Positions 4,981 to 29,500 of a DNA stretch of 39,745 nt are shown here, piece by piece. Source of the DNA: Trichomonas gallinae. Lineage: Eukaryota. Made by a program: the position numbers and the translations under genes. The stretch is taken from NCBI GenBank assembly GCA_008369845.1, contig MRSU01000065.1, positions 1 to 39,745 on the forward strand, written 5' to 3'. How positions within the stretch are numbered: position 1 is the stretch's first letter; every line of letters begins with the position of its first letter. The notes under the pieces are model-generated. The model did not search any database. It had not been told where the DNA came from and saw nothing but the letters and a program-made list of their open reading frames with translations.

Positions 4981-5496
4981 TTATTTAGAAAGATCAGAAA
5001 GCCAATGGAAAATTTCACTAAGGCCAACGCCAACAACTGAGCTTGTTTCAAGGAATGATAAACGTGATGGGTTTGGTACACGATCGAATCCAATAATATC
5101 ATCGATTACATTAAATCTAATGCAATCAGGAACATCGCATTTGCTTAAAACGATCATTATAGGCTTGCTTTCTGTCACGTGGCTTTGGAGAACTTCATTC
5201 AACCAAACAATATTTGTTGCTGTCTTTGTTAAATCGGCAGCATCAAATACGTAAACAATAGCTTTAGCTGTTCTTGCATTTGATTCCCATTGCTGAATAT
5301 TGTCACCAGAAAGCTCTTTAAATATAAAGTTATCGCGGTGATACTTGAAGTTTTGTGAATCGATTCCCTCTGTTGGCTTTGTCGATGGAATTTCATCAAA
5401 AGGTGTAAGGCGTTTCTGATCTGTCAGAATTTGAAGTCTTTTGATCAAAAGCGTTTTACCGCATGATTTTGCTCCAACAAACAAAATCTCAGTCAT
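4981..5496 (-). CDS. ARL16: ARF-like small GTPase, ARL16 type
   Basis: P-loop GAKSCGKTLLIKRLQ, switch I PSTKPTEG, G3 ELSG (ARL16 has ELGG instead of DxxGQ), VYVFDAAD and G4 SKCD. There is no N-terminal myristoylation helix, as in ARL16. The ATG is at 5496; the track start at 5499 is a TTG. Confidence 0.75.
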   Translation of the reverse strand: MTEILFVGAKSCGKTLLIKRLQILTDQKRLTPFDEIPSTKPTEGIDSQNFKYHRDNFIFKELSGDNIQQWESNARTAKAIVYVFDAADLTKTATNIVWLNEVLQSHVTESKPIMIVLSKCDVPDCIRFNVIDDIIGFDRVPNPSRLSFLETSSVVGVGLSEIFHWLSDLSK

Positions 5497-5706: not shown

Positions 5707-6301
5707 TCCTGTTCCAAAATTGACCAAGCAATCAACAAAATTATCGAAGAATTCAAAAGAATTTCAAAAACAGAAGATAATTTTGATAAAATCTATGAAA
5801 TTTGCAAAATAATTGCAAGAGAAAAGGATAGAGATGCCATGTCATTTGCCGTCAGAGAGAAATATGTTTATGTGACAGAACAAATTAATACAACTATTCG
5901 GAGAAACATTTTCACTAAAGCAGCAAGAGAAAATCAGCAAGACTTGATACATTTATTGGTCGAATCTAACATTGATATTAACTTAACTGACAATTTCAAC
6001 ATCACAGCTTTGATGACTGCTTCAGCATGGCGTCATCATGAAGTTGTCAAACTCCTTCTCACAGTTCCAAGATTAGATGTCAACGCAAAAGACAAATGGA
6101 ACTGTATAGCTTTGATTTTGGCTTCATATTTTAATGATCAAAAAGTTGTCAATCTCCTTCTTACAGTTCCTGGAATAGATATAATCGCAAAAAATGAAGA
6201 CGACTGTACGACTTTAAGTTTGGCTTCAGAAAAAAGACTATCATGAAATCGTTAAAATGTTGAATGAATTTAATTCATTCATGCAATATAACATTCAATA
6301 A
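5707..6301 (+). pseudogene. Degenerate ankyrin-repeat gene
   Basis: Ankyrin repeats are clear (TALMTASAWRHHEVVKLLL..DVNAKD). The frame stays open and protein-like upstream of the Met at 5839 (EDNFDKIYEICKIIAREKDRDA) but is cut by TGA at 5704-5706. The last repeat is frameshifted in the A6 run at 6230-6235: DYHEIVKML continues in another frame to TAA at 6299-6301. Confidence 0.7.
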
Positions 6302-6554
6302 AGCTTACTACTTCATTTGTTTTTATCATGTTAGCATTTCAATGATTATTCAAATCAAAAAAATTGGGTTTTCCTTGTTTTAAGACCTTTGGACTAATTT
6401 TGATTTTTCTTCAAAAAATACGTTTTAACATAAATAATAAAGATAGATTGCGTAAATTAATATGAATTGGTTGACCTAAGGTGGCCCATATTGTGAGAAC
6501 TGAGGAAAAACGATTAAATATATAAGAGAAGCGCAGTTTTTGGTTTTCATTTTT

Positions 6555-6618
6555 TTTTGTCATATAAATATTTACATAACAAAAATAATTTTGCCAAGTA
6601 AATATTTACGTGACAAAA
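6555..6618. repeat. ~65 bp imperfect palindrome made of four TTTTGTCATGTAAA-like units (copy B), upstream of the kinesin
   Basis: TTTTGTCATATAAA-TA-TTTACATAACAAAA-ATAA-TTTTGCCAAGTAAA-TA-TTTACGTGACAAAA. It aligns end to end with 5580-5646. Confidence 0.8.
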
Positions 6619-6650
6619 TTTAAAATGTGCACGTTTTGAATTTATTTAAA

Positions 6651-8858
6651 ATGAACACGAAAATCAGGGTTGCAATTCGTGTTCGTCCTTCTAATGATGA
6701 CAAAGGCATTTATGACATCAATAAGGACACAAATGAAATTAATTTTATCGAAAAACCCAACGACATCTATAGATTTGATCATGTATACGGACCAGATTCG
6801 AAAACAGGCGATATATACTATGAATCAGTTAAAGATGTTGTTATGGAAACCATTGAAGGCAAAAATTCCACAATTATCGCTTACGGAAGTACTGGATCTG
6901 GAAAAACATACACAATGACCGGCGACGCTAAGCACACAGGCATTATTACATTTGCAGTACAGGATATCTTCCAAACAATAGGGCAAGATATGACAAGACA
7001 TTACGGTGTAAGAATATCTTACTTTGAAATCTACAATGAAAAGATTATAGACTTGCTTGCTAGCAGAACTACAGTTAAATCAGCTGCTACACTGAGTTCT
7101 TTCTATGTTGAGAACTCAACTAATCTTCTTTCGATTTATGCAACTAAATCCGACGAAAGAGCAACAGCATCAACAAAAGAAAACGACAGATCAAGTAGAT
7201 CACATGCTATTTTGAGAATTACGATAGAATCCACAAAAGATAACGGATCCAGCTTGATATCACATTTGGATCTTGTCGATCTCGCAGGTAGTGAGTGCCA
7301 AGAGCGCACAAATGCTACAGGAGAAAGACAGAGAGAAGGAAGCAATATCAATAAATCATTGCTCGCTTTAACAAAATTAATTTATTCCGCAGCAAACAAA
7401 AAACCAGACGCCAAGCAAATAACAAACAGAGACTCCAAGCTGACCCTCGTCTTAGCAGACTCAATTGGAGGAAATTCGAAAACAGTTATAATCACAACTC
7501 TCGCAAACGAAACAGTTCACGCGTCTACGTCATACAGCAGCATCATGTTTGCCATTAATGCCATGAAAATCACCAACAAACCGAAAGTTAACGAAGTTCA
7601 AGAGAATAATGTCAATAAACTTCGTAAAAGAATCAAAGAACTGGAACAAGAACTTTTGGACATGAAAAATAATGCAGCGCAAGCGAATCTTTTCATTGCG
7701 ACTGATCCTGCACTTAAAAGGAAGCGTGATGAGCTTACTACTCTATTGAACATGACACTCGGAGGCCAAGTTGAGCAAGAAAGAACTAAGTTTGCAATCC
7801 CGGAAAATAGAGGAACACAAGCAGCGAAAACAATCGAAAAACTGAAGTTCATAGATGAGCTGCATCTCGGCACAGATGATATAATGGCTGATGAGGACGA
7901 GACTCTTTGGCAGGAATCAGAGCCAGCTCAGCTTCCTAAACGCAAGAAGAAATTATCGAAGAAATTGTTCAACCTCGACAATGATGAACTCAGCGAGCGA
8001 AAAGAAACTAAAAATCTCACACAAATTCAGACAAGCCCCATTAACACGGAGCTACAGAAGGAGAATGAGGCGATGAAAGAAGAGATCAGGAAATTAAAGG
8101 AAGAAATGGAGGAGCTCAAGAAAGAAAGAGAAGACATCGAAGAAATCAAAAGAGAAAAAGAAGAAATTGCTGAAAGATTTTCTAATCTTCAGGCAGAGGA
8201 AAGTTATAAAGAGAAGGTTCTCATTGATGGCCTCAAATCGCAGATATCCAAGCAAAAGGAGGAAATCGCAATGAAAGAGAAGAAAATTGCAGAAATCAAA
8301 AACGAGATGAAAGACAAAATCGCTCAGATCCAGAAAGACTGCAATAATCAAATCAACGAAAAGGAACTAGAGTGTGAAAACCAGATAGAGCTCCATATAA
8401 CTAAAATAGACGAGCTTAATGGAGAAATATACGACTTGAAGACAACAAACAGGGGCATGGAAGTTGGATTTAATGCTCTTCAAGAGTCGCTTAAAATTGC
8501 TCAGCAAAAATTAGTAACAAGCGAAAAAGAAGTTACAAACCTGAGTAGAAGACTACAGTGGCTTAATGATGATAGAGAAGTCAGTAGAAGGCTCGTGATT
8601 GCTAGAATGAAGGATTCGCCTTATGAATGTAATGTTTTGATTGATTGCAAACCTGCGCAAAAAACAGAAACATCCACGCAAATTGATGACGAAAAGGTTG
8701 ATCTTTGCGTTGAAAACTCTTCGACTTTCGAGGAATTAATGAAGGTTGACTACACTTATATAAAGAAGACGAGTGTAGAAAACCAGATTTACAGGATTAT
8801 TACATTTATTATATTAGTTGTTCAAATATTATTCATTTATTCAGTTGTTATGTTATAG
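6651..8858 (+). CDS. N-terminal motor kinesin with a coiled-coil stalk and a C-terminal transmembrane helix
   Basis: Motor motifs IRVAIRVRP, YRFDHVY, GSTGSGKT, NDRSSRSH, DLAGSE and RDSKLT. An E/K-rich coiled coil follows, and the protein ends in IITFIILVVQILFIYSVVML. First ATG is at 6651; the track start is a GTG. Subfamily is uncertain (kinesin-7-like by eye). Confidence 0.92.
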   Translation: MNTKIRVAIRVRPSNDDKGIYDINKDTNEINFIEKPNDIYRFDHVYGPDSKTGDIYYESVKDVVMETIEGKNSTIIAYGSTGSGKTYTMTGDAKHTGIITFAVQDIFQTIGQDMTRHYGVRISYFEIYNEKIIDLLASRTTVKSAATLSSFYVENSTNLLSIYATKSDERATASTKENDRSSRSHAILRITIESTKDNGSSLISHLDLVDLAGSECQERTNATGERQREGSNINKSLLALTKLIYSAANKKPDAKQITNRDSKLTLVLADSIGGNSKTVIITTLANETVHASTSYSSIMFAINAMKITNKPKVNEVQENNVNKLRKRIKELEQELLDMKNNAAQANLFIATDPALKRKRDELTTLLNMTLGGQVEQERTKFAIPENRGTQAAKTIEKLKFIDELHLGTDDIMADEDETLWQESEPAQLPKRKKKLSKKLFNLDNDELSERKETKNLTQIQTSPINTELQKENEAMKEEIRKLKEEMEELKKEREDIEEIKREKEEIAERFSNLQAEESYKEKVLIDGLKSQISKQKEEIAMKEKKIAEIKNEMKDKIAQIQKDCNNQINEKELECENQIELHITKIDELNGEIYDLKTTNRGMEVGFNALQESLKIAQQKLVTSEKEVTNLSRRLQWLNDDREVSRRLVIARMKDSPYECNVLIDCKPAQKTETSTQIDDEKVDLCVENSSTFEELMKVDYTYIKKTSVENQIYRIITFIILVVQILFIYSVVML

Positions 8859-9192
8859 ATTATTTTTATTTATTAAAATATTTTTTATGATTATGTTTCA
8901 GCCAAATTTCATTTTATCAATAACAACAAACTCAATCAAAAAACTCTCCACCAAATTCATTATTTATTATCCTTATGATATTTTAATTGATTACTAATGA
9001 CAAATCATAAAATGCAAGTAATTTAGATGCAAAGATAAATCAATATTTATGAGATATCTATTAATCATGATGATTTGTTATTCCTTGGTATTTTTATATA
9101 TCTTATATAGATTTTGCTTGAATGATAATGTCACAAATGATGTAAATATGTTAGAGGAATTTTAAACAAAATAAATTTTATTATAATATGTG

Positions 9193-11733
9193 TTAATGCC
9201 TCTTGAATTTGGTGATAGGCATTCTTTTATGATTTTGTGGTAGACTCCTGGATTCTTTCAATTGCTGCTCATTAAATTCAATACCTTCTGGAATCCATCC
9301 TTTAACTGAAATGCTTTGGTCGGATCCAATGTCATCACTAAGAGCAATAATGACAGGTTTTTCATTTCCTTCAATCACTGATGGATTGATAAGAGTGAAA
9401 TTTGCCAATCCACTGTCTATATTTGGAGTATTTTCGTACTTTTTAATTCCATCAGTAGTGACATTAAAACACATGAACTCAGCTTCGTCATCCATCTCTG
9501 TGTAAACTCCGACAAGTGATGAGAGAGGTGAAGAGATGACATGTATAGTATGTTCACTAGAGAATCTCTCCATAATTGTAAAGTTCGTGCTAGTTTTTCC
9601 AGTTAGAGGAGCAACAGTGATTTTCAGTTGACTATCAATTTCGTATACAACAACTACTGAATTAACAATGCATTCGAAATGGAAAACATTCGCGCTTCTC
9701 GGAATATTTGCAATCCTCTGGTTTCCATTTGTTATTGTTCCATCCGTTTTCATGTATAAAGGAGTTCCATCATTCATGAGCGCGAAATCTTTAATATATT
9801 CTGCTCTCCATTGGCAGTTAGCTTTGTATAATTCGTCATCAATCAAGTAGTAAATATCATCTGATGATGGCGAGCATTTCATCTTTGATATTTTCTTTTC
9901 TGAACTGAAATTTGTTGAAAACATTGTTTCTTTGTTGCCTGCATCAGTGAAAATAATTTCAGAAGGAGTAACATATGCAATAATGCTATGTGATTTTGTT
10001 CTTAAAACAAAAACGTCTGCAAGATTTTTGATTTGCCTCATGTACATTTGTTTAATGTTATTTTCTATTTTCATCACGAAAACTTGATCATCGTATGATA
10101 AAGCTATATATGGAGAGTTCTGCGATGTTTTGATTGAAACATTTCCGCTATCGTCGAAGCTTGGCTTTTTGAAATTATCGAAATCAAATGCACTATTGAA
10201 TTTAACTGTTTTAATCGATTCAATATCATTTTGTTCTTTTCCTGATATGATTTCTGTGAGCATCTGTCTTACGTAGTTTTTAATATTCTCTGATATTTCA
10301 TTGTGCATGTTGGTGAGTCTGTCTTTCAATATTGGCTCCATTCTCTTAACAAGTTCTTCTATAACACGATTGAGTGCTTCCTCTATTTGAGCCTTTTGCA
10401 ATGGAATTTGACTTGCTGATACTTGCTGCTGAATAATTTGTGGCTGTGTGATTTGCTGCGGTTCTTGAATAATTTGTGGCTGTGTAATCTGTTGTGGTTG
10501 TTGAATAATTTGTTGAGATTGTGGCTGCTGGATAGGTTGAGTTTGCTGTTGTTGAATAGTTTGTGTCTGTTTTTGTTCAACTGGCTGCTGTTGAATGCTT
10601 GGAGTGAGTGGAGGCTGCTGATATAGTTGAGTTTCTTCAGTGATTTCTGAGAGGCAAAGTTTACCAGTGAGTTTATTAAAGGTAACTGGACTGATTGGTG
10701 GAAGATTTGGAAATCTATTAATTTGTTTTGACGGAAGTGGATATGGCAATGGAATTGTGTATTCACCATGAGTTAGTTTCATAACTGTATGATTTGTTTT
10801 TCCATCGTCAGCAGTAGAAAAGAAAATTATAGAATCTCTATAAACTTCAATTTCATAAAATGATTCCGGAATTTCGCCATTGATCTTAATTTGCTCATAG
10901 TAATTTAATGAAGGGCTCTCAAATGCAGATATTATCTTATTCTGGCAATATATGATGGACAATGGCATTGAAAGATGAGAAGCCGACTTGATTTGATCTA
11001 TTTGCTCTTTTGTGTCTATTATGAGCCAGTAAGAGTTTAATATTTCTCCATTTTCTTGTATCTCGTAAATTTGACTATATAAGTTTGCTTTGTTATTTTT
11101 GTAGCCTAGAACACAAAATTGAACAAGGTTAAGCACATAAACTCTCTTGATTTCAAAAGATTCAATTTGAAGTGTTTTAAATGGTTCATTTTCATTGAGT
11201 TTATGAACATAAATAGTGTTTCCAACTTGATATATGTAATAACCATTGGATAATGTATCTACAAACGTAATTTTTTGATCATCTTTCGAAATTTTATTGA
11301 GTTTGGCACCAGTTAAACAGTATAATGTATTTGAGGCAAGAATTAATATCGTATAATTTTGTTCATTCGGAAATATCGAAACATTCGAAATTTCAGAATT
11401 AAATTTGCACTCATTTTGCAGTTTGTAATCAGCATCATAAATTCTTATATTTTCTCCATCGAATGTGAACAAAAATGTCTGCCTATTATTACGCAAAATT
11501 TTTGAATATAATTTTTCATTGGAATTATCATTTGATTTTTCATTTCTGGCATTTTCTCCTTTTGTATTGTGATAATAATCGTATTTAAATACTTTGTCTT
11601 GAGTAAATTCGAAGAAGAATTCGTCACCAAAACAGTATTTCCCGTTGTATTGCTTTTTATGACCTATGGTAACCGAATCTTCAGAATTGTTTGCTGCAGA
11701 ATCAACGCTCGCTTTACTATCTACAGCAGTCAT
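9193..11733 (-). CDS. Hypothetical 846 aa protein: beta-rich (propeller-like) domain, Q/P-rich linker, helical segment, second beta-rich domain
   Basis: Long ORF. Short alternating hydrophobic strands occur at aa ~30-325 and ~510-815, QQP repeats at aa ~370-445 and an amphipathic helix at aa ~445-500. I do not recognise the family. Confidence 0.8.
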   Translation of the reverse strand: MTAVDSKASVDSAANNSEDSVTIGHKKQYNGKYCFGDEFFFEFTQDKVFKYDYYHNTKGENARNEKSNDNSNEKLYSKILRNNRQTFLFTFDGENIRIYDADYKLQNECKFNSEISNVSIFPNEQNYTILILASNTLYCLTGAKLNKISKDDQKITFVDTLSNGYYIYQVGNTIYVHKLNENEPFKTLQIESFEIKRVYVLNLVQFCVLGYKNNKANLYSQIYEIQENGEILNSYWLIIDTKEQIDQIKSASHLSMPLSIIYCQNKIISAFESPSLNYYEQIKINGEIPESFYEIEVYRDSIIFFSTADDGKTNHTVMKLTHGEYTIPLPYPLPSKQINRFPNLPPISPVTFNKLTGKLCLSEITEETQLYQQPPLTPSIQQQPVEQKQTQTIQQQQTQPIQQPQSQQIIQQPQQITQPQIIQEPQQITQPQIIQQQVSASQIPLQKAQIEEALNRVIEELVKRMEPILKDRLTNMHNEISENIKNYVRQMLTEIISGKEQNDIESIKTVKFNSAFDFDNFKKPSFDDSGNVSIKTSQNSPYIALSYDDQVFVMKIENNIKQMYMRQIKNLADVFVLRTKSHSIIAYVTPSEIIFTDAGNKETMFSTNFSSEKKISKMKCSPSSDDIYYLIDDELYKANCQWRAEYIKDFALMNDGTPLYMKTDGTITNGNQRIANIPRSANVFHFECIVNSVVVVYEIDSQLKITVAPLTGKTSTNFTIMERFSSEHTIHVISSPLSSLVGVYTEMDDEAEFMCFNVTTDGIKKYENTPNIDSGLANFTLINPSVIEGNEKPVIIALSDDIGSDQSISVKGWIPEGIEFNEQQLKESRSLPQNHKRMPITKFKRH
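10430..10512 (-). repeat. 36 bp coding tandem repeat (12 aa unit QIIQxPQQITQP)
   Basis: GAATAATTTG recurs at 10431, 10467 and 10503 with near-identical intervening sequence. Confidence 0.85.
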
Positions 11734-12106: not shown

Positions 12107-12478
12107 TTAAATAAAATTGAAATCTTGGGATAAAATTACAGCAGAGTGACCATTATGAATAGCTTTGATATAAAATGTTGATATAAAGTGGTGTGTTGGA
12201 CTTCCTGGGATATTCATGTATCCCGAAATAGTAAGCATCGAAATTTTATCATTAAATAGTAATACTTGTGAGTCTACAGATGCTATTTGGTAGCTAAACT
12301 TTGGTACTGTTTTCAAAAATTTAAAAATTTCGATTTTTCCTTTATATAAAATTCCAGTCCACGATAAATTGGCATCGTTAGAATAAAAATCAGCAACAGT
12401 TGTTGCAGATGAAGAAAGCAGGCCAAAGTAGTTATCAATAATTGCCTTAGCAACACCTAATGATACCTCGTTTGCCAT
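12107..12478 (-). CDS. NTF2-family protein (NXT1/p15-like)
   Basis: 123 aa with an NTF2-fold pattern: IIDNYF..., FYSNDANLSWTG..YKGKIEI, IASVDSQ, LTISG, HFISTF, ILSQDF. TCATT initiator at 12487-12491 on the minus strand. Confidence 0.8.
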   Translation of the reverse strand: MANEVSLGVAKAIIDNYFGLLSSSATTVADFYSNDANLSWTGILYKGKIEIFKFLKTVPKFSYQIASVDSQVLLFNDKISMLTISGYMNIPGSPTHHFISTFYIKAIHNGHSAVILSQDFNFI

Positions 12479-13137: not shown

Positions 13138-13929
13138 ATGTCTGAGGGGATTCCTGAAGACCAGATTCCAGACATGTCATATGGCGCATGTCTTATTGGT
13201 CCTCCAGGCAGTGGTAAGACATCTGCCATTAAAGCTCTCAAAGAAATGTGCGAGAAACTGAAAAGGCATGTTATCGTAATGAATCTTGATCCTGCAAATG
13301 ATAAATTACCATATGAAGCAGATTTTGATATCTGTACAACCATTAATGTCAAAAGTATTATGGAATCACAGGATTTAGGCCCGAATGGAGGATTAATTTA
13401 CTGCATGGAAAGCGTTGCTGCTAATGTAAATGAGATCATCGAAGCTGTTAGACCTCGTGTTGAAAAAGCAAGCTACTTTTTAATTGATTTTCCAGGCCAG
13501 GTCGAATTATACACACATTCTGAGTGTGTTCGTCAGTTTCTCGACGCTTTTCAAAAGGAATTAAAGATAAAACTCGCAACAGTTAACTTTGTCGATGTTG
13601 TTCTTACATCAACAAAGCAGGGATATCTTGGCCAATCATTGATGAGTCTTGGAATGATGCTTAGACTTTACACTCCGCATATTAATGTACTTAGTAAATT
13701 TGATTTAGTGCAAACAAAGGAGGTTGACCTTCCATTTGATACAGAAACATGCGATTTCGAAGACATGGTAAGTAGTGGCGTTCCAAGCAAACTTCATCAG
13801 AAAATTGTCGAATTGCTTTGTGACTATGACTTAGTTTCTTATGAATATTTCTCAGTGATGGATGAATCATCCATTATACATTTAATTGAGATCATTGATA
13901 AAGCTGTTGGATGCAACTGGATGCTTTAA
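13138..13929 (+). CDS. GPN2: GPN-loop GTPase, most like GPN2
   Basis: GPPGSGKT, NLDPAN, LGPNGGLIYCME, DFPGQVELYTH and PHINVLSKFDL. GQVEL and the GPPGSGK P-loop favour GPN2 over GPN3. Confidence 0.85.
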   Translation: MSEGIPEDQIPDMSYGACLIGPPGSGKTSAIKALKEMCEKLKRHVIVMNLDPANDKLPYEADFDICTTINVKSIMESQDLGPNGGLIYCMESVAANVNEIIEAVRPRVEKASYFLIDFPGQVELYTHSECVRQFLDAFQKELKIKLATVNFVDVVLTSTKQGYLGQSLMSLGMMLRLYTPHINVLSKFDLVQTKEVDLPFDTETCDFEDMVSSGVPSKLHQKIVELLCDYDLVSYEYFSVMDESSIIHLIEIIDKAVGCNWML

Positions 13930-15826: not shown

Positions 15827-18541
15827 ATGATGGATCAGACTTCTCCCGATTATGCTTTTAGGCAAATACAAATGGCAGCCAATCTTACATCAGAGAATGC
15901 TGAGGAAGCTACTAATAATATTTGCGAGCTTATTGCGCATTATCCTATCGAAAGTTTAATAAATTTTTCAAGTTTTATTCTTTCCGATGACCCAAACATT
16001 CAACAAGAGAATATTATCATGTCATGCGTTATATATATGTCACGAATTATCGGGACACCATCGAAATCGAAATTTGGTGAATTTTGGCTAGCAACGAGTG
16101 GCGAATACAAAGACACAGTTGTTAATGCTGTAGGTCGTGGTCTCTTATTCGGCGGCAGTATTGGCCCACAAGCTGCACGTTTATATGCAAAATTATTTAA
16201 CTACGCGTATGCTGGAATGCAGACAAGTGAATATATAATACAACTACTTACAAATCAAGAAATAGGTCCTGAAATTCAACAAGCTGTATTTGAATTAGTA
16301 ATTGAATTAGTTAGTCCAGAGAACGTCGAACAAGATGATCCACACATAACAGAGCTTTCCAATGTATTTACATCTGTGATGAGCGAATTCTTACAAAAAT
16401 TTAATGAGATGGAAAAATTCGATAAAACTTACCAACTTGCAATAATTAATTGCCTTTCTTCATTCATAACACGCATAAAAGTCGACTACTTAAAAGAAAT
16501 GAACGATAGTATTTTATCTATCGCAGAAACTAAATTCCCATATATCTTAGATGAGGATATATTCCTTCAGTTATATCGACTTTTATACGCCATGATCGGT
16601 AATGTCTACAACTCAGATAATATCGAAAACTATATTGATCTCACTAGAATTTATAAATGCGGCCTCAATGGCTTATCATGTCCAGAACCACTTATCAACA
16701 AAGTTTTCGTTTTCTGGTTCTTTATTTTAGACTATGAATGCAAAACAATGAATAGAGCTGACAGAACAAATAAGTTTCTTGAATATTACCACGAAAAATT
16801 CCAAGATACAAAACCATCTTTTCTCATCCTTCCTCCCGAAATTAAACAGCACAACCTTATTCGCGACATTGCTTCAGAGCTCATCGATCCTATGCTCCAG
16901 CTTTCAATCCCGCCTGCTGATGATTTCGAGATAGAATCAGTAAATGATCCAAGCCCGTCAATGTGGGCATGTGAAATCCTGAGACAAATCGCTATCCTTG
17001 ATTCATCGTATCTTGAGAAAATCCGCGAATTCAGGGAAGCAAACATCACATCGGACCAGTGGAATGTCCAGCATGCATTGATTTGTCTCGCTTATGCTTT
17101 CTGCACGCCTGATATGAGAACGCGTGTTCAAAATCGCGATTACTGTAGGGAGATAAACAAATACATCGTCGAGAGCTTGTATTTACCAGACACACCACTA
17201 AGATTGGATGAAACGTCTGTATATATGTTGTTCTATCTCCAGAAGACATTCAACTTCTTCAATAAAGAAATGAAGGGCGAAATTGTCAAATTATTCCAAG
17301 GACTCATGCTCAAATTCGAAAAAGATCCAAAAATCGCCCTGCGTGCAGTCGATTTGATCACACAGATTGCGCGCGACTTCATTTTCGATGAATCAGGCTT
17401 CATAGATAAAATCGAAGAAATCGTTATGACGATGTTCAACAAAGTCAAAGAGGTTTATCCACGAAGCGTGAACTTAACTCAAGTTATCTACAAGCTGTTT
17501 TATATTTACGTGTTTAGAATTTCAAAGTGGGATAATGAAAAAGTTCTGGATTATCTCACGAGAATCTACAACGAAATCATCAGTCTTTTCGATCAACAAT
17601 TGGATGATAGCAGCAACGCGCCTCTCTATCACACAAACATCCAGTGCAACTTGTGGATAGTCACTGCCATTTTCAAGAAATATCATGAATATCTACCTGT
17701 AGCTGCGCCAAATGTTGCTTCGAATTTCCTGGCATTGCTCAAAGCGCATGATGTACTCCACGAAGATATTCTTAACTCTTTGTTCGCTATAATTAACGCT
17801 TTCCCGAAGAACCTCTCAGAAGACACAACTCTCGGTCAGATCATCGAATATATTCCGAGTGCAATTAACTCTAAGAGCCCGACATTGACTGTTTTGTCTT
17901 TGAAGGCATTGTCATACATGTTCGAAAAGTTCGGAGAAAAAGGCGTCGATGTCTTCAATCTTACTTTGGATAACATATTCAATCTCATCGACGACGATGG
18001 TTTCCCAATTAACGAAAAGGGAGAATTATTATGGGCCCTCAGCAGAATTTTGAAAGTTTACACGAACAGTATTTCAACAGAAGATGTTGGAAATCTCTTC
18101 AAGAAGCTCGACAACTACTTGACAGGTGATTTCAAATCGATTGGCGATTACGCTGATGAATTTATGGCCGAGTTGTATGCGGCCATCTATACATGCTACA
18201 CTTCAATTCTCATGTCAACTAATTATCAGGCGTATATCAAGAATGAGATGGATAAGAACGAAAGAAGAAAGTTCTTCAGATTCCTTGTGAAACCGCTCAG
18301 AATATTTATGAGATATAATATCGGTTGCTTCGTTGATAGCAATACATATGGAATTAAGTTGATAGAGGCTGTTTATGATTTTGAAGACTTGATGATTGAT
18401 TCATTCGGAAAAGATTTCAACATTTATGCAAACCATCACCAATTCTTTTTCTTTTTCTTCTGGGGAATCATCAATAACAAGGATTGTACTACAGAAGAAC
18501 AGAATTATAAAAGAATGGTTGAAAAAGTCACAAAATGTTAA
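15827..18541 (+). CDS. Divergent importin-beta-like HEAT/ARM repeat protein
   Basis: 904 aa and all-helical. WLATSGEYKDTVVNAV resembles the IBN_N domain end. An acidic loop followed by SPSMWACEILRQIA and SDQWNVQHAL parallels importin-beta1 NPCKAAGVCL and DWRYRDAA. The stop reads TAAA. Confidence 0.65.
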   Translation: MMDQTSPDYAFRQIQMAANLTSENAEEATNNICELIAHYPIESLINFSSFILSDDPNIQQENIIMSCVIYMSRIIGTPSKSKFGEFWLATSGEYKDTVVNAVGRGLLFGGSIGPQAARLYAKLFNYAYAGMQTSEYIIQLLTNQEIGPEIQQAVFELVIELVSPENVEQDDPHITELSNVFTSVMSEFLQKFNEMEKFDKTYQLAIINCLSSFITRIKVDYLKEMNDSILSIAETKFPYILDEDIFLQLYRLLYAMIGNVYNSDNIENYIDLTRIYKCGLNGLSCPEPLINKVFVFWFFILDYECKTMNRADRTNKFLEYYHEKFQDTKPSFLILPPEIKQHNLIRDIASELIDPMLQLSIPPADDFEIESVNDPSPSMWACEILRQIAILDSSYLEKIREFREANITSDQWNVQHALICLAYAFCTPDMRTRVQNRDYCREINKYIVESLYLPDTPLRLDETSVYMLFYLQKTFNFFNKEMKGEIVKLFQGLMLKFEKDPKIALRAVDLITQIARDFIFDESGFIDKIEEIVMTMFNKVKEVYPRSVNLTQVIYKLFYIYVFRISKWDNEKVLDYLTRIYNEIISLFDQQLDDSSNAPLYHTNIQCNLWIVTAIFKKYHEYLPVAAPNVASNFLALLKAHDVLHEDILNSLFAIINAFPKNLSEDTTLGQIIEYIPSAINSKSPTLTVLSLKALSYMFEKFGEKGVDVFNLTLDNIFNLIDDDGFPINEKGELLWALSRILKVYTNSISTEDVGNLFKKLDNYLTGDFKSIGDYADEFMAELYAAIYTCYTSILMSTNYQAYIKNEMDKNERRKFFRFLVKPLRIFMRYNIGCFVDSNTYGIKLIEAVYDFEDLMIDSFGKDFNIYANHHQFFFFFFWGIINNKDCTTEEQNYKRMVEKVTKC

Positions 18542-20514: not shown

Positions 20515-23500
20515 TTATCCGAGTTTTGCAAGGTCTTTTTCATACTTTTCGAGAAGAGTTCTTGCGCGGATGACTTTCGCTTCGAGTTCAAGTCTCTTGA
20601 GAAGGTTGGACTTGACTGCGTGTGAAGTTGCTCCGCCAGATGGATTCTGGCCTGTCTTTGGTGCTGATTTTCGCTTTGCTGTGGCTTCTGTTGTTGCAGC
20701 GAGATTTTGTGTAACTTCGCACAGCTGAGCAATGGCTTCAGCAAGTTTCGTTGCTTCAAGGCTTAATGTCTTGATCTGTGAAAGTTCTTTGCCTGATTTA
20801 GCAACTTTAGACAAAACAGGAGCAATTGTTGCTTCTGGTATTGCTGGTTTCTGTTGAATAATAGTTCTGGATGCTTGAATGGCTTCATTGAGTGCCTCAA
20901 GAAGAGTCATTGACTTCTCTGCGAGTTTATCAACGTTTTCTACAACATTGAGTTTTCCGCATGCGAGAATCAATAACTTCTGCGTAGCACTTGTTATACT
21001 TGTGCAAGGCTCGTTGATTGTTGTCCTTGAGAGTTCTGAGAATCTTGTGACTAGCTGGTCTTTGATTTCGGCGATCATTGCTTCGAACTCATGCTTAACA
21101 TTTCCTAATCCAGAAACAGCTGGATGGAGTTTCTGGCGAATTGCACTGAGTTCGTCGTTCGCAGATGCTGCCTGTTCGTTCGCTTCACTCGATGCTGAAA
21201 TAATTCCGTTGATGAGTTCAAAGACTTTCTCTGAATATGCCTTGGAAACACCATCGAAATCGCCTCTGAGGAGGAACCTGTCTTTAAGTGAATTCATTAA
21301 TTGCGCAAAATTAACTGTTAAAGCACCTGCAGCATCGGCTAAATAGGACTGATGTGAGATAGAGAAGCATGTTGCAGAGCAAGCTAAGACACGTGTAATC
21401 ATGTCCTGCATCTGCTGCATGTATGGTGTGAAGGATTGGACTATGTACTGATTCGTTGCCTGTGGATGGTTGACGATTTGGAAGAAAATCGTGTTCTTTT
21501 CGTTGAATTGTGCGATTGAGTTCTGCAGTTCGTTGTAGCAGACGCTGATGTCTGTGGAAGAAACATCAGGAACTGGTGGAATGTCGAATGATTTAGGAAG
21601 CATGTCGGCGCTTTCAATGTCGGGTGTTCTTGGAACAACATCTGTTAATGTGTTCATCTTGTTGAGAACTTTGAGAGTTTTATCGACAACTGACACGAAA
21701 GCAGCTGCTGTGATATCAACAGTAGACTTCACGTTGTATGCTTCTTTCTGGAAACCTAGAATTGCTTCAGATAGTTCGTTAATTGCATCACTAAAATCAA
21801 CTTCAGCCTGCTTGTTTGTATTGATTTCTTTGATTGCTTTGACATTTGCAGTGATTTGCGGCAAAAGTTTGTCGAAGTTTGCTTTCTCACTCGACAAAAT
21901 CGATAAAGTAACATCAGGAATCTTGCTGGATGTAATAGTGGCGAGTGTTGATGACAGTGTGTTGATTGTGTTGGACACTGATTGAATAAATGTGCACTTG
22001 GCATTTTCCCATGGTGTCTTTTGTTCTTCGTCGTTGTGTGATTCTTGCAGCATCGATGACATAGAATCAATGATTCTGTTGTATGACCTTGTTGCTCGCT
22101 TGATCATTGTCGATGAAACAGCTCTCATCTTAGTGATGTCGATGATGTTTCTTGTTGCTGTTGTACTGTTGTATATCATTGTGATATAATCAGTGGCAAT
22201 TGATGTTGACATTGTCTGGTTGGAGACAGAGAAGCCTCTGTACATGGCTGACTGGCAGCTTGCGAAGTTCTTGATGATTAAATTGATGCAGTCCTGTTGC
22301 TTGTCTTTGTTTCGTGCTTGAATAGCTTCGATTAATCTTGTTGATGCATCATCGATTTCAGTCTTCGCTGCGTTGAAGTATAAATCAACTGCTTTAGTAT
22401 CAGCGAGTTCTCCGACTTGCACGAAAACGTTTGGTGTTTCTCTCTTCAAAATCTGGATGGAGTTGGCCTTAATTGTTTGCAGAACTTGCGAAAGTTGCTG
22501 GTCAGCAGATGCATCTGCGATATAATACTTTTGGACTGCTTTGTCAATCTGAACGATTTGGTCGATGATTGGATCCAAGTCTGCTGCTTGTTCGTTCAAT
22601 GTCATTCTCTTGACTTTCATCGCTGAGAAGTCGATGAGCTCTCTCGAGATTATTTCGAGGTCATTAGTGTCAATTGCTTTGACAAGTTTCTCGAAGCTCT
22701 TGATTGGCTCAGTTTTCGCGCTCTGAACATTAACAAGTGCAGCATCGAAGTTCTTCAGTGCCTGGAATAAAACAGTGCACATCTGCCTGAATCTTTGAGC
22801 TGATTGTGTGTTTGATAAATCAGTAGAAACTGTGATGATTTCGTTGACTACTTGCAACAACTGTGCTGGATCAGTGACAAGCATTGCTCTGACTTTCTGG
22901 TCAGTAACAAGTGTCAAGTTTCTCGCGAGTGATGCAATGAGTTTCGGTGAAAGCTTGGAGAGTTCCATGACAAGTTGATCTATTTCCTGAGAATATTTCG
23001 TCTTCATAAGCTTCTCGACAAGTTGAATTGCTTCTGTATTTGTCTTTGCAAAGATGTTCTTGCACTCTGAGATAGGAAGGTGAGAGAACTGCGACAAAAT
23101 CGGGATAACATCGCTGGCTGTTTGTGCTGCATTCGCGACACTGTTGAGCTCTGATCTGTAGTTCTTTGTTGCCAAAGGTGCAGCTGAAACTGTTGCAACG
23201 TCGATGTTAAGATTTGTATTGAGAATTGAGTCAAGGCCTGCAATATTGGAGAATGTCGTGACAACAGGTGTAGATGGCTTGGTGATCTGAATAAGATTAT
23301 TGAGAACAGCGAGCTTCTTAACGATCTTGTCGTTGCTTGATTCGCGGGTTATTGTCTTAACAGCTGCTGGCGCTGAATTTGTTGATACTAACAATTTCAT
23401 TTCTCCCTGGTATTCTTTGATTTCGTCTGTTGATATGTCGAGAGATTGAGCTTGTGGCTTCCCTGCGATTGCTGAAATAGCTTGAATGATCTGCGGGTTG

Positions 23501-26500
23501 CTAGCAATCAAATCACGTTGAATTGCAGACATCTTTGTTCTAAGTTGAAGTCTCTGCAGATTCTCCTTAGATGCTGTTGAGATTGCGTCGACTGTTGTAA
23601 TTGATGGAGCTGCAATTTGAGCAAGCTGTGCTGGATTTTGCTGCAGCAAAGCTCGCTGGAATCCGATGAGTTTTCCGCTGATTTGTGTCGCGTTGTTTAC
23701 AGTGAGTGCTGTCATCTGTGATGCCTGGTTGAGTTGTGCTGTCTTGCTGAAGTCAACATCTTTGCATGAGGCAGCCATGTATTGAGGAGAAGCAGCCGCC
23801 ATAGAAAGATGCTGAAGAAGCAAAGTTTGAGCTGCTTGTGATTCTTTGTCTTCTTGTTTCACTTGCTGCTTGACTTGATCTGGATTGATACTGATCTGAT
23901 ATAGCTGCTGATAAGTTTGCTGCTGGAGCTGTGCGAGTTTATCAGGATTAAGCTGGATGTTCTTGATCGCATTAGTTTTGTCTGTTTGAGAAACTTCAGC
24001 GATTTCTGTTCTGATCTTGAGTAAGTCAGCGATGTTCGAGCAGAGCTGTGCTTGTGCGAGATCCTTCATGGAGTCAGCAAGTTCAGCATCGACTTTCTGA
24101 GCGTCAGGGACGAGCTTCTTCGCATCGACCTTGCGCTTAGTCTGCTGAATCAAAAGTGATTTGTCGAAGATTCTTGACTCCATAGACTTAGATTTGACAG
24201 TGTTCACTACATTGTCTAAGTCTTTCATCTTGATCATCTGCGTCGACATCAATGAGAAGATGACAACCAAGTCATCAACTTTGACATCGCTGACAGCATC
24301 AGCCAATGATGTGAATCCTTCACGAGTTGAATGCTGCAAAGCAAGCATTTTATCTTTGGCGTCTGTTAGCTTCTGCTCGTTTAAGTTTGCCTGCAAGATT
24401 TGGTTCGCTTGTCCACTCGTCAACATCTGATCGATGTTTGGAACTTTCTGGCGGATGACTTGGAGAACGTTGCCCATCTCGAGAGTCTGCTGGCAAGTAT
24501 TGAGAAGCTGCTGATGCTGGTGGAAGAATTCTACAGTTTTCTCGTTGTTGACTTTAACGAGATGCAATTGCTCTGGGTCATCAGCGAGTTTATCAGAGAC
24601 AGATTCATGGACTTTGTCAAGTAAAGCAGCTGTTGTATTCTTCAATGCAGACAAATCGTATTTGATGTCAGAACTCTTGGATGTCGCCAATGTTGCTGCG
24701 AGATTAGATATAACTGCCTGCTGATTCTCTAAATCTTCAATTCTTAATTGCGGAATTGCCATAGCAAACTCTTGTGGATGATTGATGTACTCGAGCTGCT
24801 GTGTAATCATCTGCGTGTAAGTGTCAACAAGTTCTCTGTCGACCGGCTGAGAAACATCAATGGCAGAAATCTTCTGCTGGAGCTGTGGGAGACAGTTCGT
24901 GTGGAACTGTTGTATTGCAACAAGAGATTGTGCGAGATTGAATCTCTGTAAAGCATCAACTACGAAGTCTTGTGCTTTGAGTGCTGTTTCTGTTTGAATT
25001 AAAGCATTCATCTTTGAAACGGATTCGTTTGTCTTTATCGTTTCGATGATCTTGTTGTTCGTTGATTTGAGCAAACCAATAGGCGTTGTTTCGACTGATG
25101 TATCAGCAATCATGTTATATACATCATCAGACGCTAAAACATTAAGTGAAGCATCAATCATTCTCATTGTCGTAACCATGTCTTCGGGTGAAGTGTTATG
25201 GATAACAACATCGAGTTGTTCCGGTCTGTCAGCGATGTTTACGAGTTGAATAAGTTTCTGCTGAACATCGACAAGCTTTGTTGGCGCAATTGGTGCTTTG
25301 AGGAGCTGCTGTCCTTCTGGAGACCTGACGTATTTGCACAATTCAGGGACTTTAGCAACAACAAGTTGCTGCAATGCTTGAAGTGTTTCGACAAGATTGA
25401 CTGCTGAGAAGCCTCTTTGTACTGATCTGTTGACATCTTCAACTGTCTTTAATTTGATTTCTTGTGTTGTCTGAGCGTTTGCAACAGCTTCGAGCAACTC
25501 TGTCTGCTTCATCTGGAATGTTTGAGCTGCTTCAGTGATATTTGTGTCTACTTGCTTTTCAAGAATGTTTTCTGTCATCAACTTCAAAGCGTGCTGCTGG
25601 ACAATGATTTCATCTGGTGTGAGTCTTGCGATTGTCTTCTTCAGTTCAATTGGATCGTTGAGAAGCTGAGACTGTTGCTGTATTGACATCATCGCGTTCG
25701 TTATTGCGTCTTCGTTGAGCTTGGCATCGATTGGCTTATCTAGCATTTTAACGATATCTGGGAATTCATCAAGCTGCTTCTGTCTGAGTCCTTCGATTCT
25801 CTGTGCGAGCATTACACCAAGATTAGACTCAACAAGCTTTCCTTGCTGTTGTACAGGAACAGAAGAAGTAACAACAGTTCCTAGTTGCGTAGTTTCAGCG
25901 ATGTTGTTCATGATTGTTGGAACTTCAGCTGTTGTGATTGAAATGATTGGATTAAGCGCAACTGATATTGTTGATGTGTTCTCTGTGGTTTGTTTAGCAA
26001 TGAGTTCTGGTGTAGAAGCCTTTGTTTGGATTATTGTTGGCTTGGCTGTCTTCTGCAGTGTGTCAAGTTTCGTTCTGTATTGGTTGAGAACAACTGTTGC
26101 ACTCTTTGCGACATTGAGACATGAAGCATCAGCAATTGCCGGCAAATAGATTTCAGCATTGACTAGTTTAACAGCTGTTGCATTTTCATTGAATTCTGTG
26201 ATTGGAACAACCATTGTTATCTCTGTCTTAAGAGCTTCTGCGCAGTTCTTGATCACATTTACTGATTCTTTGACCTTCTCGAAATCTTTTGCATCGTTAG
26301 AAATTTCGAATGACTTTTGGGCTTTGACGCAGTTCTGGATGATTGGTTCAATCCTTGATACATCAATTCCAGCTGCTTTGGCGCGAAGTGTTGCTATCTG
26401 CAATGACTGAGAAAGTGCCAAAACATCTGACATGTTCTGATCAAGTGAAACCAATGAGTCAGCAATGTCTTCGATTTGAACAGCAGAACCACGAATTGCG

Positions 26501-29500
26501 TTTCTCAGCTCTTGCTTGCCTGTGAGTGGAATTGGTGTCTTCCATGTATTGATTAGCGGTTGTATTGGTGTGATTGTCTTCAATGCAGCAGCAATCTCTT
26601 CCTTGTAGTTGTTAGGCATGGTTGTGAGTGTTGGAACAACAGTCTTAGTGAATGCTTCGTAAAGATTAGAGAACTGGTTGAGTTCCGATGGACCAATTGC
26701 AATTGATCTGTTTGCGTTCTTCAATAAAGCGTATGTCTGTCTTACGAATGATTTAACAGCTGGTGATGATGCTCCTGGGTTCTGAATAATGGAATTGTCG
26801 CATGCTGTAACAATTCTATCTAACTGGCTCAACAACATCTCGCCGAGACACATGTCGAATTGATGAAGTGTCGAAATAAGCTTGGTGTTGGACTCAGCGA
26901 CAGGATAAACGATGTCCTTGACTTGCTCGTTGTTCTTGAGTGTGTCAAGGAGAAGAGAAACAGCTTGTGATGCATCATTGAGTGAATCCCGGTTGACCAT
27001 TGCTGACGCGAATGATTTAGTCTGCATCAATAATTTAGCATCAGACTCTTTGACACTTGACTGAGCAACAGAATCATAATATTTGGTCTCATTGCTGAAC
27101 TTATCAGGAGACTGCGTGATTTTGTCGTGAAGAACTTTGATTGTGTTCTGAAGTTCAATGACTTGCTGTGCTGCATTAACTGCTGCTGCAGTTGCAACAT
27201 CACTTAAGAGATGGTTCCTCATTTCATAGTCTGTTTCGCATTGTGAGATTAATCTTACAACATCAACTAAAGCGCGAGTGTTACCTTCCTTGATATGTGG
27301 TGTATAGATGTTAACTGACTTGAGGACGTGGTTAGGAAGAGCATCCTTGTGATCATTGATTGCATTGAGATCTTCAACGATAGAAGCAATATATTCTTGT
27401 GGCAATTCTTTTTCGCCGCCTTCCATGATTAAGTCGCATGACTCTTTGATTGCACTTATGATATTGTTCTGCGCCATGACTGGTTCCTTTAAGATGAGCT
27501 GGTATGATTTTGGTTTACGAGTTTTAGGAAGGGAAGTGAAAACTTCTGAAACAAGTGCAACATTTTGTGTTGCTTCTTCAAGTTGATCGAAGTTTGAATC
27601 ATAAAGCGTTGGCAATAATGCACATGTTGCACTGTACAAATCATCGCAGACGATCTGTGCTTGGCGTGGCTTGAGTGTTGGCAAGTCTTTCATTACATTA
27701 GATGCAGTGATAATCAAATTATCGAACTGAGACTTGAGCTGTGGATTTTCGGCGACTTCTGGTGCTTGTGCAGCGGCCGTCAATTGAGCGACAAATTTCT
27801 GAAGCTGAGGATGAGCGTGCTGAATGAATTTAGTTGCTGTGGCTTTGTTCATGTGTGGGACAGAGATGATCTTAGCAATTGTACCTGATGAGTCATTGAA
27901 CGTCTTAAGCAAGTCGGTAAATTGTGATGAGTCAACCATTGGCTCAATTAACTCTGCATTTGATATAAGTTTCGGCATTTCATTCTTGATAGAGTTGAGC
28001 TGCTGTATTAAGACTTTCTCATCTTGTGCATTAAGTCTGTCTGTTGAGAATGCCTGCATGTTCTGTCTGATCTGAGAAACCAAAGCCTTTGCACTTGGAC
28101 TCTGATCAATTTGTCCGCATGATTCGATTTGGTTGAGAACGTTGTTGATCATTGCTGCTTGTTGTTGAACGACGACGATTGTTTCTTCGATATCATCATC
28201 TTCTTTGATAACTGGAACATTTTCGACCATGATTTCGACTTTCTTCGCTGTTGGAATGTTTCTGACAGCGGAAACGAAAACATTTGTCTTGTTCATAACT
28301 TCACTTATGTTGTTGTTCAGTTCAGAAACAAGAGAAAGATCTATTGCCTTCCTGACATTTATTGGGACCAAGTTGACTTTCTTCTGGAGCTGTATAAGTG
28401 TCTCTTTATCAAGCTTAGCCTGCTTGAGAGAGAACTGTGGACTCTGTAAGTGAGCATTGACTCTTTCGATTGTTGCGTTGATGGAATTCGTCCAATCATT
28501 GAGTGTCCTGTTGACGATTTCGTTGTTTGGATTTTCTGCGACAGAGTTTTGTACTTCGACGATCTTCTGCGAGAAATTGCCAAGAGATTGAGAAACTTCG
28601 GCAAGCTTAGCTTTGATAATTTCTGGAGAAACTTCAGGCTCAATGATTTCTTCAGCTTTAGGTCTCTCAGATTCTTCTTGGATAACAACTGGCTGAACGC
28701 CAGCTATCATCTGCAACCCGTATGGAACGAGCTGGTCAGCATTCTCGTTTGCCATGAATGATGGAACAGTGATAGCAATTTGCTGGAACTTCTGAGCGAG
28801 ACGGTTGATCTGGATGACAAATTCGTAGACTTCATCAGTGAGATTTTCACCCATTTCCTTAAGTGAGACTAAAACACTTGACATGTAATCATAGAGTCTG
28901 ACAGCGTCCTTGCGCAAATCATCGTTGTCTTCGACTTCAGGGAGAGTAATGTAATACTGGACAATCTGAGCGAGATGAGTGACGCAGTCGATGACAGCCT
29001 GGATCTGTTCAGGCGTTGGCTTAGCGAACTGCATCTTGTTTTGTCCTACCATGCTCTTCTTCTCTTCAAGCTTGGCGCTCGATGTCTGCTTCTGCGCAAG
29101 AGTGAGCGAGTCTTGTAATTGAGAAGTGATTTCTTCGTTGATTGTTGCGATCTTGACATTGTTCGTGACATCAACAATTCTCTTCGACAGGACTTGGATC
29201 TCGTTCATTGATTCGATTGCTTCCCTAACAATGTCGCATGCACATTTGACGACTTCATCGTTATATGGATCTTCAATTAATTCGTTTCTCCTATCGACCA
29301 TCTCTAAGTAAATCTTCTTGGCTTTAGCGAGTGTTGACATCGCACGATCGTTGAGTGTAGCATCCTGTTTGACACTATCTGAAGATGATGTTGTGACCAA
29401 TTCACTGATGAGATCTTGGAATGAATTCATAGACTCCTGGAATTTGAGAATGTAAGGAATGTTGGAGATGTTCTCTGACGGTTTCTCAGTGATAGCTTTA

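What the first reader, a model, noticed from the sequence alone, without database searches (positions are those of the whole stretch)
6651..8858. Tail-anchored kinesin: a motor with its own C-terminal transmembrane helix
Seen: the protein ends in a 20-residue hydrophobic stretch (IITFIILVVQILFIYSVVML, 8796-8855) immediately before the stop, after a long coiled coil. Established: nearly all kinesins bind membranes through adaptors; integral-membrane kinesins are rare (Dictyostelium Kif9 at the nuclear envelope is one example). Inference: this motor could be inserted directly into the nuclear envelope, ER, Golgi or hydrogenosome. A nuclear-envelope location would be notable because trichomonads use closed mitosis with an extranuclear spindle.
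Basis: partly seen in the sequence, partly recalled or inferred. Interest (0 to 1): 0.7.

Follow-up and report, generated by a model that had tools for sequence, protein, structure and literature searches.

The report
Membrane-anchored CENP-E-like motor of trichomonads
Trichomonads and their relatives carry a motor protein most similar to the chromosome-moving motor CENP-E that ends in a conserved, predicted membrane anchor; it likely sits in the nuclear envelope, where it could help a spindle outside the nucleus pull on chromosomes inside.

Summary
Window 6651-8858 is an intact 735-aa kinesin ending in a 20-residue hydrophobic helix (mean hydropathy 2.82) at the stop. It is not read-through: 17 of 18 full-length relatives in its clade, including proteins of Tritrichomonas foetus (two), Histomonas meleagridis and Trichomonas vaginalis, end in such a helix, against 2 of 334 other kinesins retrieved. 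Published tables file the T. vaginalis members as unplaced 'X6' and score T. vaginalis as lacking CENP-E. The tails are strongly hydrophobic with no basic residues after them, which favours ER, nuclear-envelope or Golgi membrane over hydrogenosomes; there is no KASH tail. Parabasalids divide with a spindle outside an intact nucleus, and hypermastigote kinetochores are embedded in the envelope. Most likely this is an outer-nuclear-membrane motor that couples the nucleus, possibly at kinetochore sites, to cytoplasmic microtubules. Location and function are untested; an ER/Golgi cargo motor is the main rival. Dictyostelium Kif9 is a convergent precedent from another family.

The parts
6651..8858 (+). 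Whole gene: 735-aa kinesin-7-related motor with C-terminal predicted transmembrane helix
6651..7598 (+). N-terminal kinesin motor domain (aa 1-316)
   Evidence: Pfam PF00225 E 1.2e-77; best PDB sequence hit CENP-E; kinesin fold
6885..6908 (+). P-loop (GSTGSGKT), intact
7182..7205 (+). Switch I (NxxSSRSH), intact; the loop-8 region before it is about 10 residues shorter than in typical kinesin-7
7278..7298 (+). Switch II (DLAGSE) followed by a clade-specific Cys
   Evidence: 17 of 18 clade members, 1 of 374 other kinesins
7569..7748 (+). Neck linker and neck coiled coil (aa 307-366), as in N-terminal, plus-end-type motors
   Evidence: directionality is inferred
7749..8039 (+). Predicted disordered linker (aa 367-463) holding a conserved LP[KR][KR] motif in a basic, NLS-like stretch (7920-7964)
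   Evidence: pLDDT under 50; motif in 14 of 18 clade members, 7 of 220 other hits, 0 in 9,921 aa of other window proteins
8040..8525 (+). Long predicted coiled-coil stalk (aa 464-625)
   Evidence: continuous helix in the model
8526..8750 (+). Predicted disordered spacer (aa 626-700), longer and more acidic in several relatives
8796..8855 (+). Predicted transmembrane tail anchor (aa 716-735), no residues after it

Best explanation
This is a kinesin most closely related to kinesin-7/CENP-E whose clade has a conserved hydrophobic C-terminal helix, predicted to be a tail anchor that likely places the motor in the outer nuclear membrane, where it would couple the intact nucleus, possibly at envelope-attached kinetochore sites, to the microtubules outside it. 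Shown: gene, motifs, conserved tail, placement next to kinesin-7. Inferred steps: (1) the helix is inserted after translation by the ER route, motor facing the cytoplasm; (2) neck and stalk coils dimerise it; (3) it is an active, probably slow or short-range plus-end motor (catalytic motifs intact, loop 8 shortened); (4) it is held in the ER-continuous outer nuclear membrane by an unknown partner, not through a KASH peptide; (5) walking along extranuclear spindle or axostyle/mastigont microtubules, it would slide envelope patches and the centromeres tethered beneath them, replacing CENP-E's protein-protein kinetochore tail with a membrane anchor.
For: Tail in 17 of 18 clade members versus 2 of 334 other kinesins of 404 aa or more. 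All named clade members are parabasalids. CENP-E is the top PDB hit for the single motor (182 vs 167 bits next) and the profile (359 vs 343). Clade plus kinesin-7 is one side of a branch in three trees: 99, 97, 100/99. No other kinesin-7 is assigned among 19 T. vaginalis kinesins (PMC2867816 supplement) and the CenpE row is empty for T. vaginalis, which has Ndc80 complex, Mis12, CenpA and CenpC (PMC8516963 supplement). Tail hydropathy 1.77-2.82 with net charge 0 or -1 after the helix, against 1.41-1.68 and +1 to +4 for three hydrogenosomal tail anchors (PMC7446849 Table 5). Trichomonad mitosis is closed with an extranuclear spindle (PMC9698047); Barbulanympha kinetochores are embedded in the persistent envelope (PMC2110152 abstract). 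Kif9 shows that a short kinesin tail helix can target the nuclear envelope without KASH (PMC11816917).
Against: No localisation, expression or activity data. The clade is sister to, not nested in, sampled kinesin-7; AU tests do not reject a union with kinesin-2 (p 0.128); a published 45-genome tree left it outside kinesin-7 as X6. The post-neck RRxTW-like motif of 145 of 223 other hits is absent from all 21 clade sequences examined. No similarity to a CENP-E kinetochore-binding tail was found. One helix with 0-8 luminal residues cannot cross both membranes. Tail chemistry does not separate nuclear envelope from ER or Golgi. T. vaginalis has no assigned kinesin-1 or -3, so a cargo role is open. 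P0005 lacks the tail. The tail of the direct T. vaginalis orthologue was not seen.
Confidence: 0.45

Rival explanations
1. It is a self-anchored cargo motor of the ER, Golgi (parabasal body) or vesicles, spreading or positioning these membranes along axostyle and pelta microtubules, with no special mitotic role.
For: Same tail chemistry fits any ER-route membrane. T. vaginalis has no assigned kinesin-1 or kinesin-3 among 19 kinesins. Kinesin-7 members need not be kinetochore motors: Dictyostelium Kif11 lies on cytoplasmic microtubules (PMC7140473). The CENP-E post-neck motif is absent.
Against: Closest family is a largely mitotic one; the clade is so far found only in a lineage with an extranuclear spindle; the only characterised natural precedent, Kif9, is at the nuclear envelope.
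Confidence: 0.3
2. It is a membrane-anchored but poorly motile tether that holds the nucleus to the mastigont/axostyle (Kif9-like positioning role) rather than a transport or congression motor.
For: Loop-8 region about 10 residues shorter in 17 of 18 clade members, altered loop-12 entry and switch-II flank; Pfam score is low for a kinesin. The axostyle constricts the nucleus in karyokinesis.
Against: P-loop, switch I, switch II, neck linker are all conserved across the clade, as expected for a working ATPase.
Confidence: 0.15
3. It is anchored in the hydrogenosomal outer membrane and lines hydrogenosomes up along the axostyle and costa.
For: Trichomonads have hydrogenosomal tail-anchored proteins; alignment of hydrogenosomes along the axostyle is recalled knowledge, not from a call.
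Against: None of 18 distinct tails (window plus 17 relatives) has net positive charge after the helix, and all are more hydrophobic than the three hydrogenosomal examples.
Confidence: 0.07
4. The hydrophobic end is an artefact of AT-rich read-through or mis-assembly.
For: The 60 nt are 15% GC and 55% T, like the 3' flank.
Against: Identical tail in a strain about 5% divergent in DNA; equivalent tails of unrelated sequence in 17 of 18 relatives down to about 30% identity.
Confidence: 0.02

Closest known systems
Kinesin-7 / CENP-E (human CENP-E motor, PDB 1T5C, 6M4I; plant KIN-7, NACK1)
   Same: N-terminal motor with best sequence match and tree placement here; neck coil and long coiled-coil stalk.
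   Different: 735 aa rather than about 2,700 (human length recalled); loop-8 region 10 residues shorter; no RRxTW post-neck motif; no detectable kinetochore-binding tail; ends in a predicted transmembrane helix; branches as sister to sampled kinesin-7.
Dictyostelium discoideum Kif9
   Same: [quoted passage not shown]
   Different: Kif9 is an internal-motor, kinesin-13-type depolymeriser linking centrosome to nucleus with an intranuclear spindle; this protein has an N-terminal kinesin-7-related motor in cells with an extranuclear spindle. The tails are most likely convergent (inferred; Kif9 was not in my trees).
Kinesin 'X6' of Wickstead et al. 2010 (T. vaginalis XP_001330811, XP_001305935)
   Same: Same clade: XP_001305935 is P0238; the trimmed motor row of XP_001330811 matches the window protein at 229 of 268 columns by hand count.
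   Different: That study listed the architecture as motor only, with no transmembrane annotation and no family assignment; other members of its X6 group could not be read.
KASH proteins (nesprin-4, UNC-83) of LINC complexes
   Same: Tail-anchored proteins with a cytoplasmic coiled region that bring kinesin force to the nucleus.
   Different: They recruit kinesin-1 as adaptors and have a luminal KASH peptide; here the motor itself carries the anchor and there is no luminal peptide.

Membership tests
Kinesin superfamily, active motor | Motor fold with P-loop, switch I and switch II | tested here: met
   Pfam, Foldseek TM 0.85-0.88 to target motors, motifs conserved in 18 of 18 relatives
Kinesin superfamily, active motor | Microtubule-stimulated ATPase and motility | not testable with these tools
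   needs purified protein
Kinesin-7 (CENP-E family) | Motor domain groups with kinesin-7 to the exclusion of other families | tested here: inconclusive
   Best tree joins it to kinesin-7 at 100/99, as sister; best PDB hits are CENP-E; but AU p 0.128 for a union with kinesin-2, outgroups lacked kinesin-5, -6, -9, -12, -13, and a published tree left it as X6
Kinesin-7 (CENP-E family) | N-terminal motor, neck coil, long coiled-coil stalk | tested here: met
CENP-E proper (kinetochore motor) | Post-neck RRxTW motif (its role as an Aurora/PP1 site is recalled) | tested here: not met
   0 of 21 clade sequences, 145 of 223 other hits
CENP-E proper (kinetochore motor) | C-terminal kinetochore-binding region | tested here: inconclusive
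   No Pfam family and no Atlas hit at 0.9 for aa 321/340-735; no curated model of that region was available
CENP-E proper (kinetochore motor) | Localisation at kinetochores, role in congression | not testable with these tools
   needs imaging
Tail-anchored membrane proteins | Single hydrophobic helix within about 30 residues of the C-terminus, none elsewhere | tested here: met
   Hydropathy scan: tail 1.77-2.82, best elsewhere at most 1.22, 0-8 residues after it; helix in model. No dedicated TM predictor was available
Tail-anchored membrane proteins | Carbonate-resistant membrane insertion with cytosolic N-terminus | not testable with these tools
   needs fractionation
Hydrogenosomal tail-anchored proteins | Moderately hydrophobic helix followed by a basic C-terminal element | tested here: not met
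KASH / LINC proteins | Luminal KASH peptide after the helix | tested here: not met
   0-8 residues after helix; no KASH Pfam match in 11 of 11 scanned
Kif9-type (Kin-I) transmembrane kinesin | Internal motor of kinesin-13 type | tested here: not met
   Motor starts at residue 2-5; kinesin-13 not among the 60 best PDB matches shown

The most novel reading that the evidence does not exclude
Parabasalids did not lose CENP-E: they converted it into an integral membrane motor that is the cytoplasm-facing, membrane-embedded part of their nuclear-envelope kinetochores, giving a first molecular handle on how an extranuclear spindle moves chromosomes across an intact envelope. The conserved NLS-like LP[KR][KR] motif could route it through the inner membrane or pore rim during kinetochore insertion.
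Probability: 0.3. Interest if true: 0.9.

Novelty: new variant of a known kind. Interest (0 to 1): 0.72.

Why it matters
[quoted passage not shown] A CENP-E-related motor with its own conserved membrane anchor, in species that can be cultured and tagged, makes that question directly testable. It would also correct comparative tables that score T. vaginalis as lacking kinesin-7/CENP-E, and be a second, independent origin of an integral-membrane kinesin. Even under the cargo reading, a self-anchored motor with no host counterpart in parasites of people, cattle and birds is of interest.

Tried and rejected
No whole genome was held, so paralogues and SUN or kinetochore genes in this organism could not be listed. 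No RNA holder was listed and nothing from two RNA runs of the same study laid on the stretch: no evidence either way. The individual base changes within the tail codons of the second strain were not seen. The direct T. vaginalis orthologue XP_001330811 did not appear in any protein search; the word-based searches also missed XP_001305935, so absence from them means little. The mixture-model careful tree did not finish; its quick tree is. ESM Atlas hits for aa 340-735 were all under 0.9. Foldseek does not rank kinesin families usefully. Members of Wickstead's X6 group beyond T. vaginalis could not be read (figure is a picture; one search found no rows). Two non-clade proteins with hydrophobic ends were judged unrelated: P0085 (low-complexity end) and P0237 (brachiopod isoform whose cluster mate is 833 aa longer). 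Fragments P0236 and P0240 and seven near-copies of P0134 were left out of the counts. No earlier scan findings. Complex prediction was not used: no candidate partner was in hand. Hydrogenosome, KASH and read-through readings were considered and scored low.

Full report
Observation. The window holds one open frame at 6651-8858 (+) of 735 aa with a kinesin motor at residues 2-307 and no other Pfam family. Their mean hydropathy is 2.82; the best other 19-residue window is 1.04. The DNA there is AT-rich, so read-through was a fair worry, but 2 of 2,971 stop-free intergenic 20-codon windows reach that value. A 2,661-base contig from a bird metagenome run covers 6534-9101 with 132 substitutions and no indel in the coding part; 35 of the 40 listed changes are at third codon positions, and the matching protein P0001 differs at 9 of 735 residues, none in the tail. 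The AlphaFold model (mean pLDDT 67.5, 11-sequence alignment) shows motor, neck helices 318-366, a disordered stretch 367-465, a continuous helix 464-625, a second low-confidence stretch to about 700 and a confident last helix 701-734.

Organism. Named relatives are from Tritrichomonas foetus, Histomonas meleagridis and Trichomonas vaginalis. A trimmed motor row for T. vaginalis XP_001330811 in the supplement of PMC2867816 matches the window protein at 229 of 268 displayed columns by hand count. The window is therefore most likely from a Trichomonas species, plausibly a bird-associated one (inference).

Conservation of the tail. Four searches gave 18 full-length clade members besides the window protein and its near-copy P0001; two fragments (P0236, P0240) and seven near-copies of P0134 were left out. 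Seventeen of the 18 end in a hydrophobic helix with 0-8 residues after it; P0005 (586 aa, short contig) does not. The 17 include T. foetus TRFO_04250 and TRFO_21471, the Histomonas protein and T. vaginalis XP_001305935 (P0238). Tail sequences are not alignable residue by residue, but position and hydrophobicity are kept while overall identity falls to about 30%. Among 334 other kinesins of 404 aa or more in the same results, 2 pass the same threshold, both probable artefacts. The tail of XP_001330811 itself was not seen.

Family. CENP-E is the top solved-structure match for the motor (182 bits, next KIF3B 167) and for the clade profile (359, next 343), and the named non-parabasalid hits of the profile search are mostly CENP-E or plant KIN-7. 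FastTree on 219 motors, an IQ-TREE mixture-model quick tree on 56 and a full LG+G4 tree on 38 all recover the clade (95, 96, 100/99) and join it with kinesin-7 (99, 97, 100/99). In one search it is sister to the other kinesin-7 (95/97), which fits either a fast-evolving kinesin-7 or an old sister line. Against certainty: AU tests reject neither a union with kinesin-2 (p 0.128, 32.6 log units worse) nor with animal CENP-E (p 0.098); my outgroups lacked kinesin-5, -6, -9, -12 and -13, although these rank lower in the PDB lists; and Wickstead et al. placed both T. vaginalis proteins in a minor group X6 outside named families, architecture motor only. Salas-Leiva et al. leave the CenpE row empty for T. 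vaginalis while listing its Ndc80 complex, Mis12, Nnf1, CenpA, CenpC, Ska2 and Ska3. I call it kinesin-7-related, not a proven CENP-E orthologue.

Derived features. P-loop, switch I and switch II are intact in 18 of 18. The stretch spanning loop 8 is 52-56 residues in 17 of 18 against a mode of 65 elsewhere; loop 8 as a tubulin contact is recalled knowledge. A Cys follows DLAGSE in 17 of 18, and in 1 of 374 others. The post-neck RRxTW-like motif seen in 145 of 223 other hits is missing from all 21 clade sequences examined. In its place, an LP[KR][KR] motif, often twice and in a basic NLS-like context, lies in residues 321-520 of 14 of 18, against 7 of 220 other hits and none in 9,921 residues of other window proteins. 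Its function is unexplained.

Which membrane. PMC7446849 (passages and Table 5) gives three hydrogenosomal tail anchors with hydropathy 1.41-1.68 and net +1 to +4 after the helix, and states that ER tail anchors are more hydrophobic. The clade's tails score 1.77-2.82 with net charge 0 or -1 after the helix. That favours the ER route, which serves ER, nuclear envelope and Golgi alike. There is no luminal KASH peptide, so any SUN contact would be non-canonical, as proposed for Kif9, and one helix cannot span both nuclear membranes.

Mechanism. Most likely (0.45) an outer-nuclear-membrane, dimeric, plus-end-type motor that couples the envelope, possibly where centromeres attach, to extranuclear spindle or axostyle microtubules. 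The reasoning: nearest family is the kinetochore motor; no tail-less kinesin-7 is known in T. vaginalis; trichomonads have closed mitosis with an extranuclear spindle; Barbulanympha and Trichonympha kinetochores sit in the envelope. The strict kinetochore version I put at 0.3. The main rival (0.3) is an ER/Golgi cargo motor, helped by the lack of assigned kinesin-1 and -3 among 19 T. vaginalis kinesins. A static tether (0.15), hydrogenosome (0.07) and artefact (0.02) follow. Every step after the sequence analysis is inferred.

Novelty. Ten literature searches over the open library returned no paper describing a transmembrane kinesin in parabasalids or a tail-anchored kinesin-7, judged from listings and the passages below; accession searches gave 0 hits. 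Subscription papers are not covered; Rada et al. 2019 on T. vaginalis tail-anchored proteins (seen only as a reference) may list this protein, and UniProt-type automatic annotation may already flag the helix. What I saw: PMC3603444 passages and two whole sections; PMC2867816 passages and supplement rows, its tree figure being an unreadable picture; PMC8516963 passages and part 1 of Supplementary Data 4; PMC5579357 passages and a partial supplement search that did not settle T. vaginalis CenpE (37, 40); PMC2110152 abstract; passages of PMC7140473, PMC13071381, PMC7446849, PMC11816917, PMC7889174, PMC9698047, PMC6881465, PMC3507195. Kubai 1973 and Tikhonenko et al. are known to me through these reviews only.

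Verdict. Real, conserved and apparently undescribed: a new variant of a known kind, combining a kinesin-7-related motor with a Kif9-like but probably independent membrane anchor, in a lineage where such a part has been predicted. Interest 0.72.

Noticed in passing
window 20515-38175 (-): A 5,886-aa protein with three FERM-central matches in its first half and a long helical second half ending in a talin-like C-terminal helix (resemblance recalled, no Pfam hit): a giant talin-like multi-FERM protein in a trichomonad.
   Followed up: partly
window 5839-6296 (+): Ankyrin-repeat ORF stops at 6246, while another frame continues the last repeat for about 20 residues across an A-run near 6230: probable frameshift or decayed copy.
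   Followed up: partly
window 9193-11733 (-): 846-aa protein with no Pfam match, a Gln/Pro-rich middle and two beta-rich-looking ends, convergent with the kinesin gene.
   Followed up: no
window 13138-13929 (+), 15827-18541 (+), 12107-12478 (-), 4981-5496 (-): GPN-loop-type GTPase, HEAT-repeat importin-beta-like protein (resemblance only; weak TOG hit), NTF2-domain protein and Arf-like GTPase: ordinary neighbours.
   Followed up: no
window 6557-6626: Several unrelated contigs of run X1 match 33-39-base pieces just upstream of the kinesin start: a repeated upstream element or AT-rich chance matches.
   Followed up: no
P0134 (unnamed, 819 aa): Deepest-branching clade member, with the tail anchor but a nearly full-length loop 8 (63 residues), suggesting the anchor may predate the loop deletion; source organism unnamed.
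   Followed up: partly
PMC2867816 supplement: T. vaginalis kinesin set is 5 kinesin-2, 6 kinesin-6, 2 kinesin-8, 3 kinesin-9, 2 X6 and 1 unplaced, with no kinesin-1, -3, -5, -13 or -14 assigned: an unusual kit for building a spindle.
   Followed up: no
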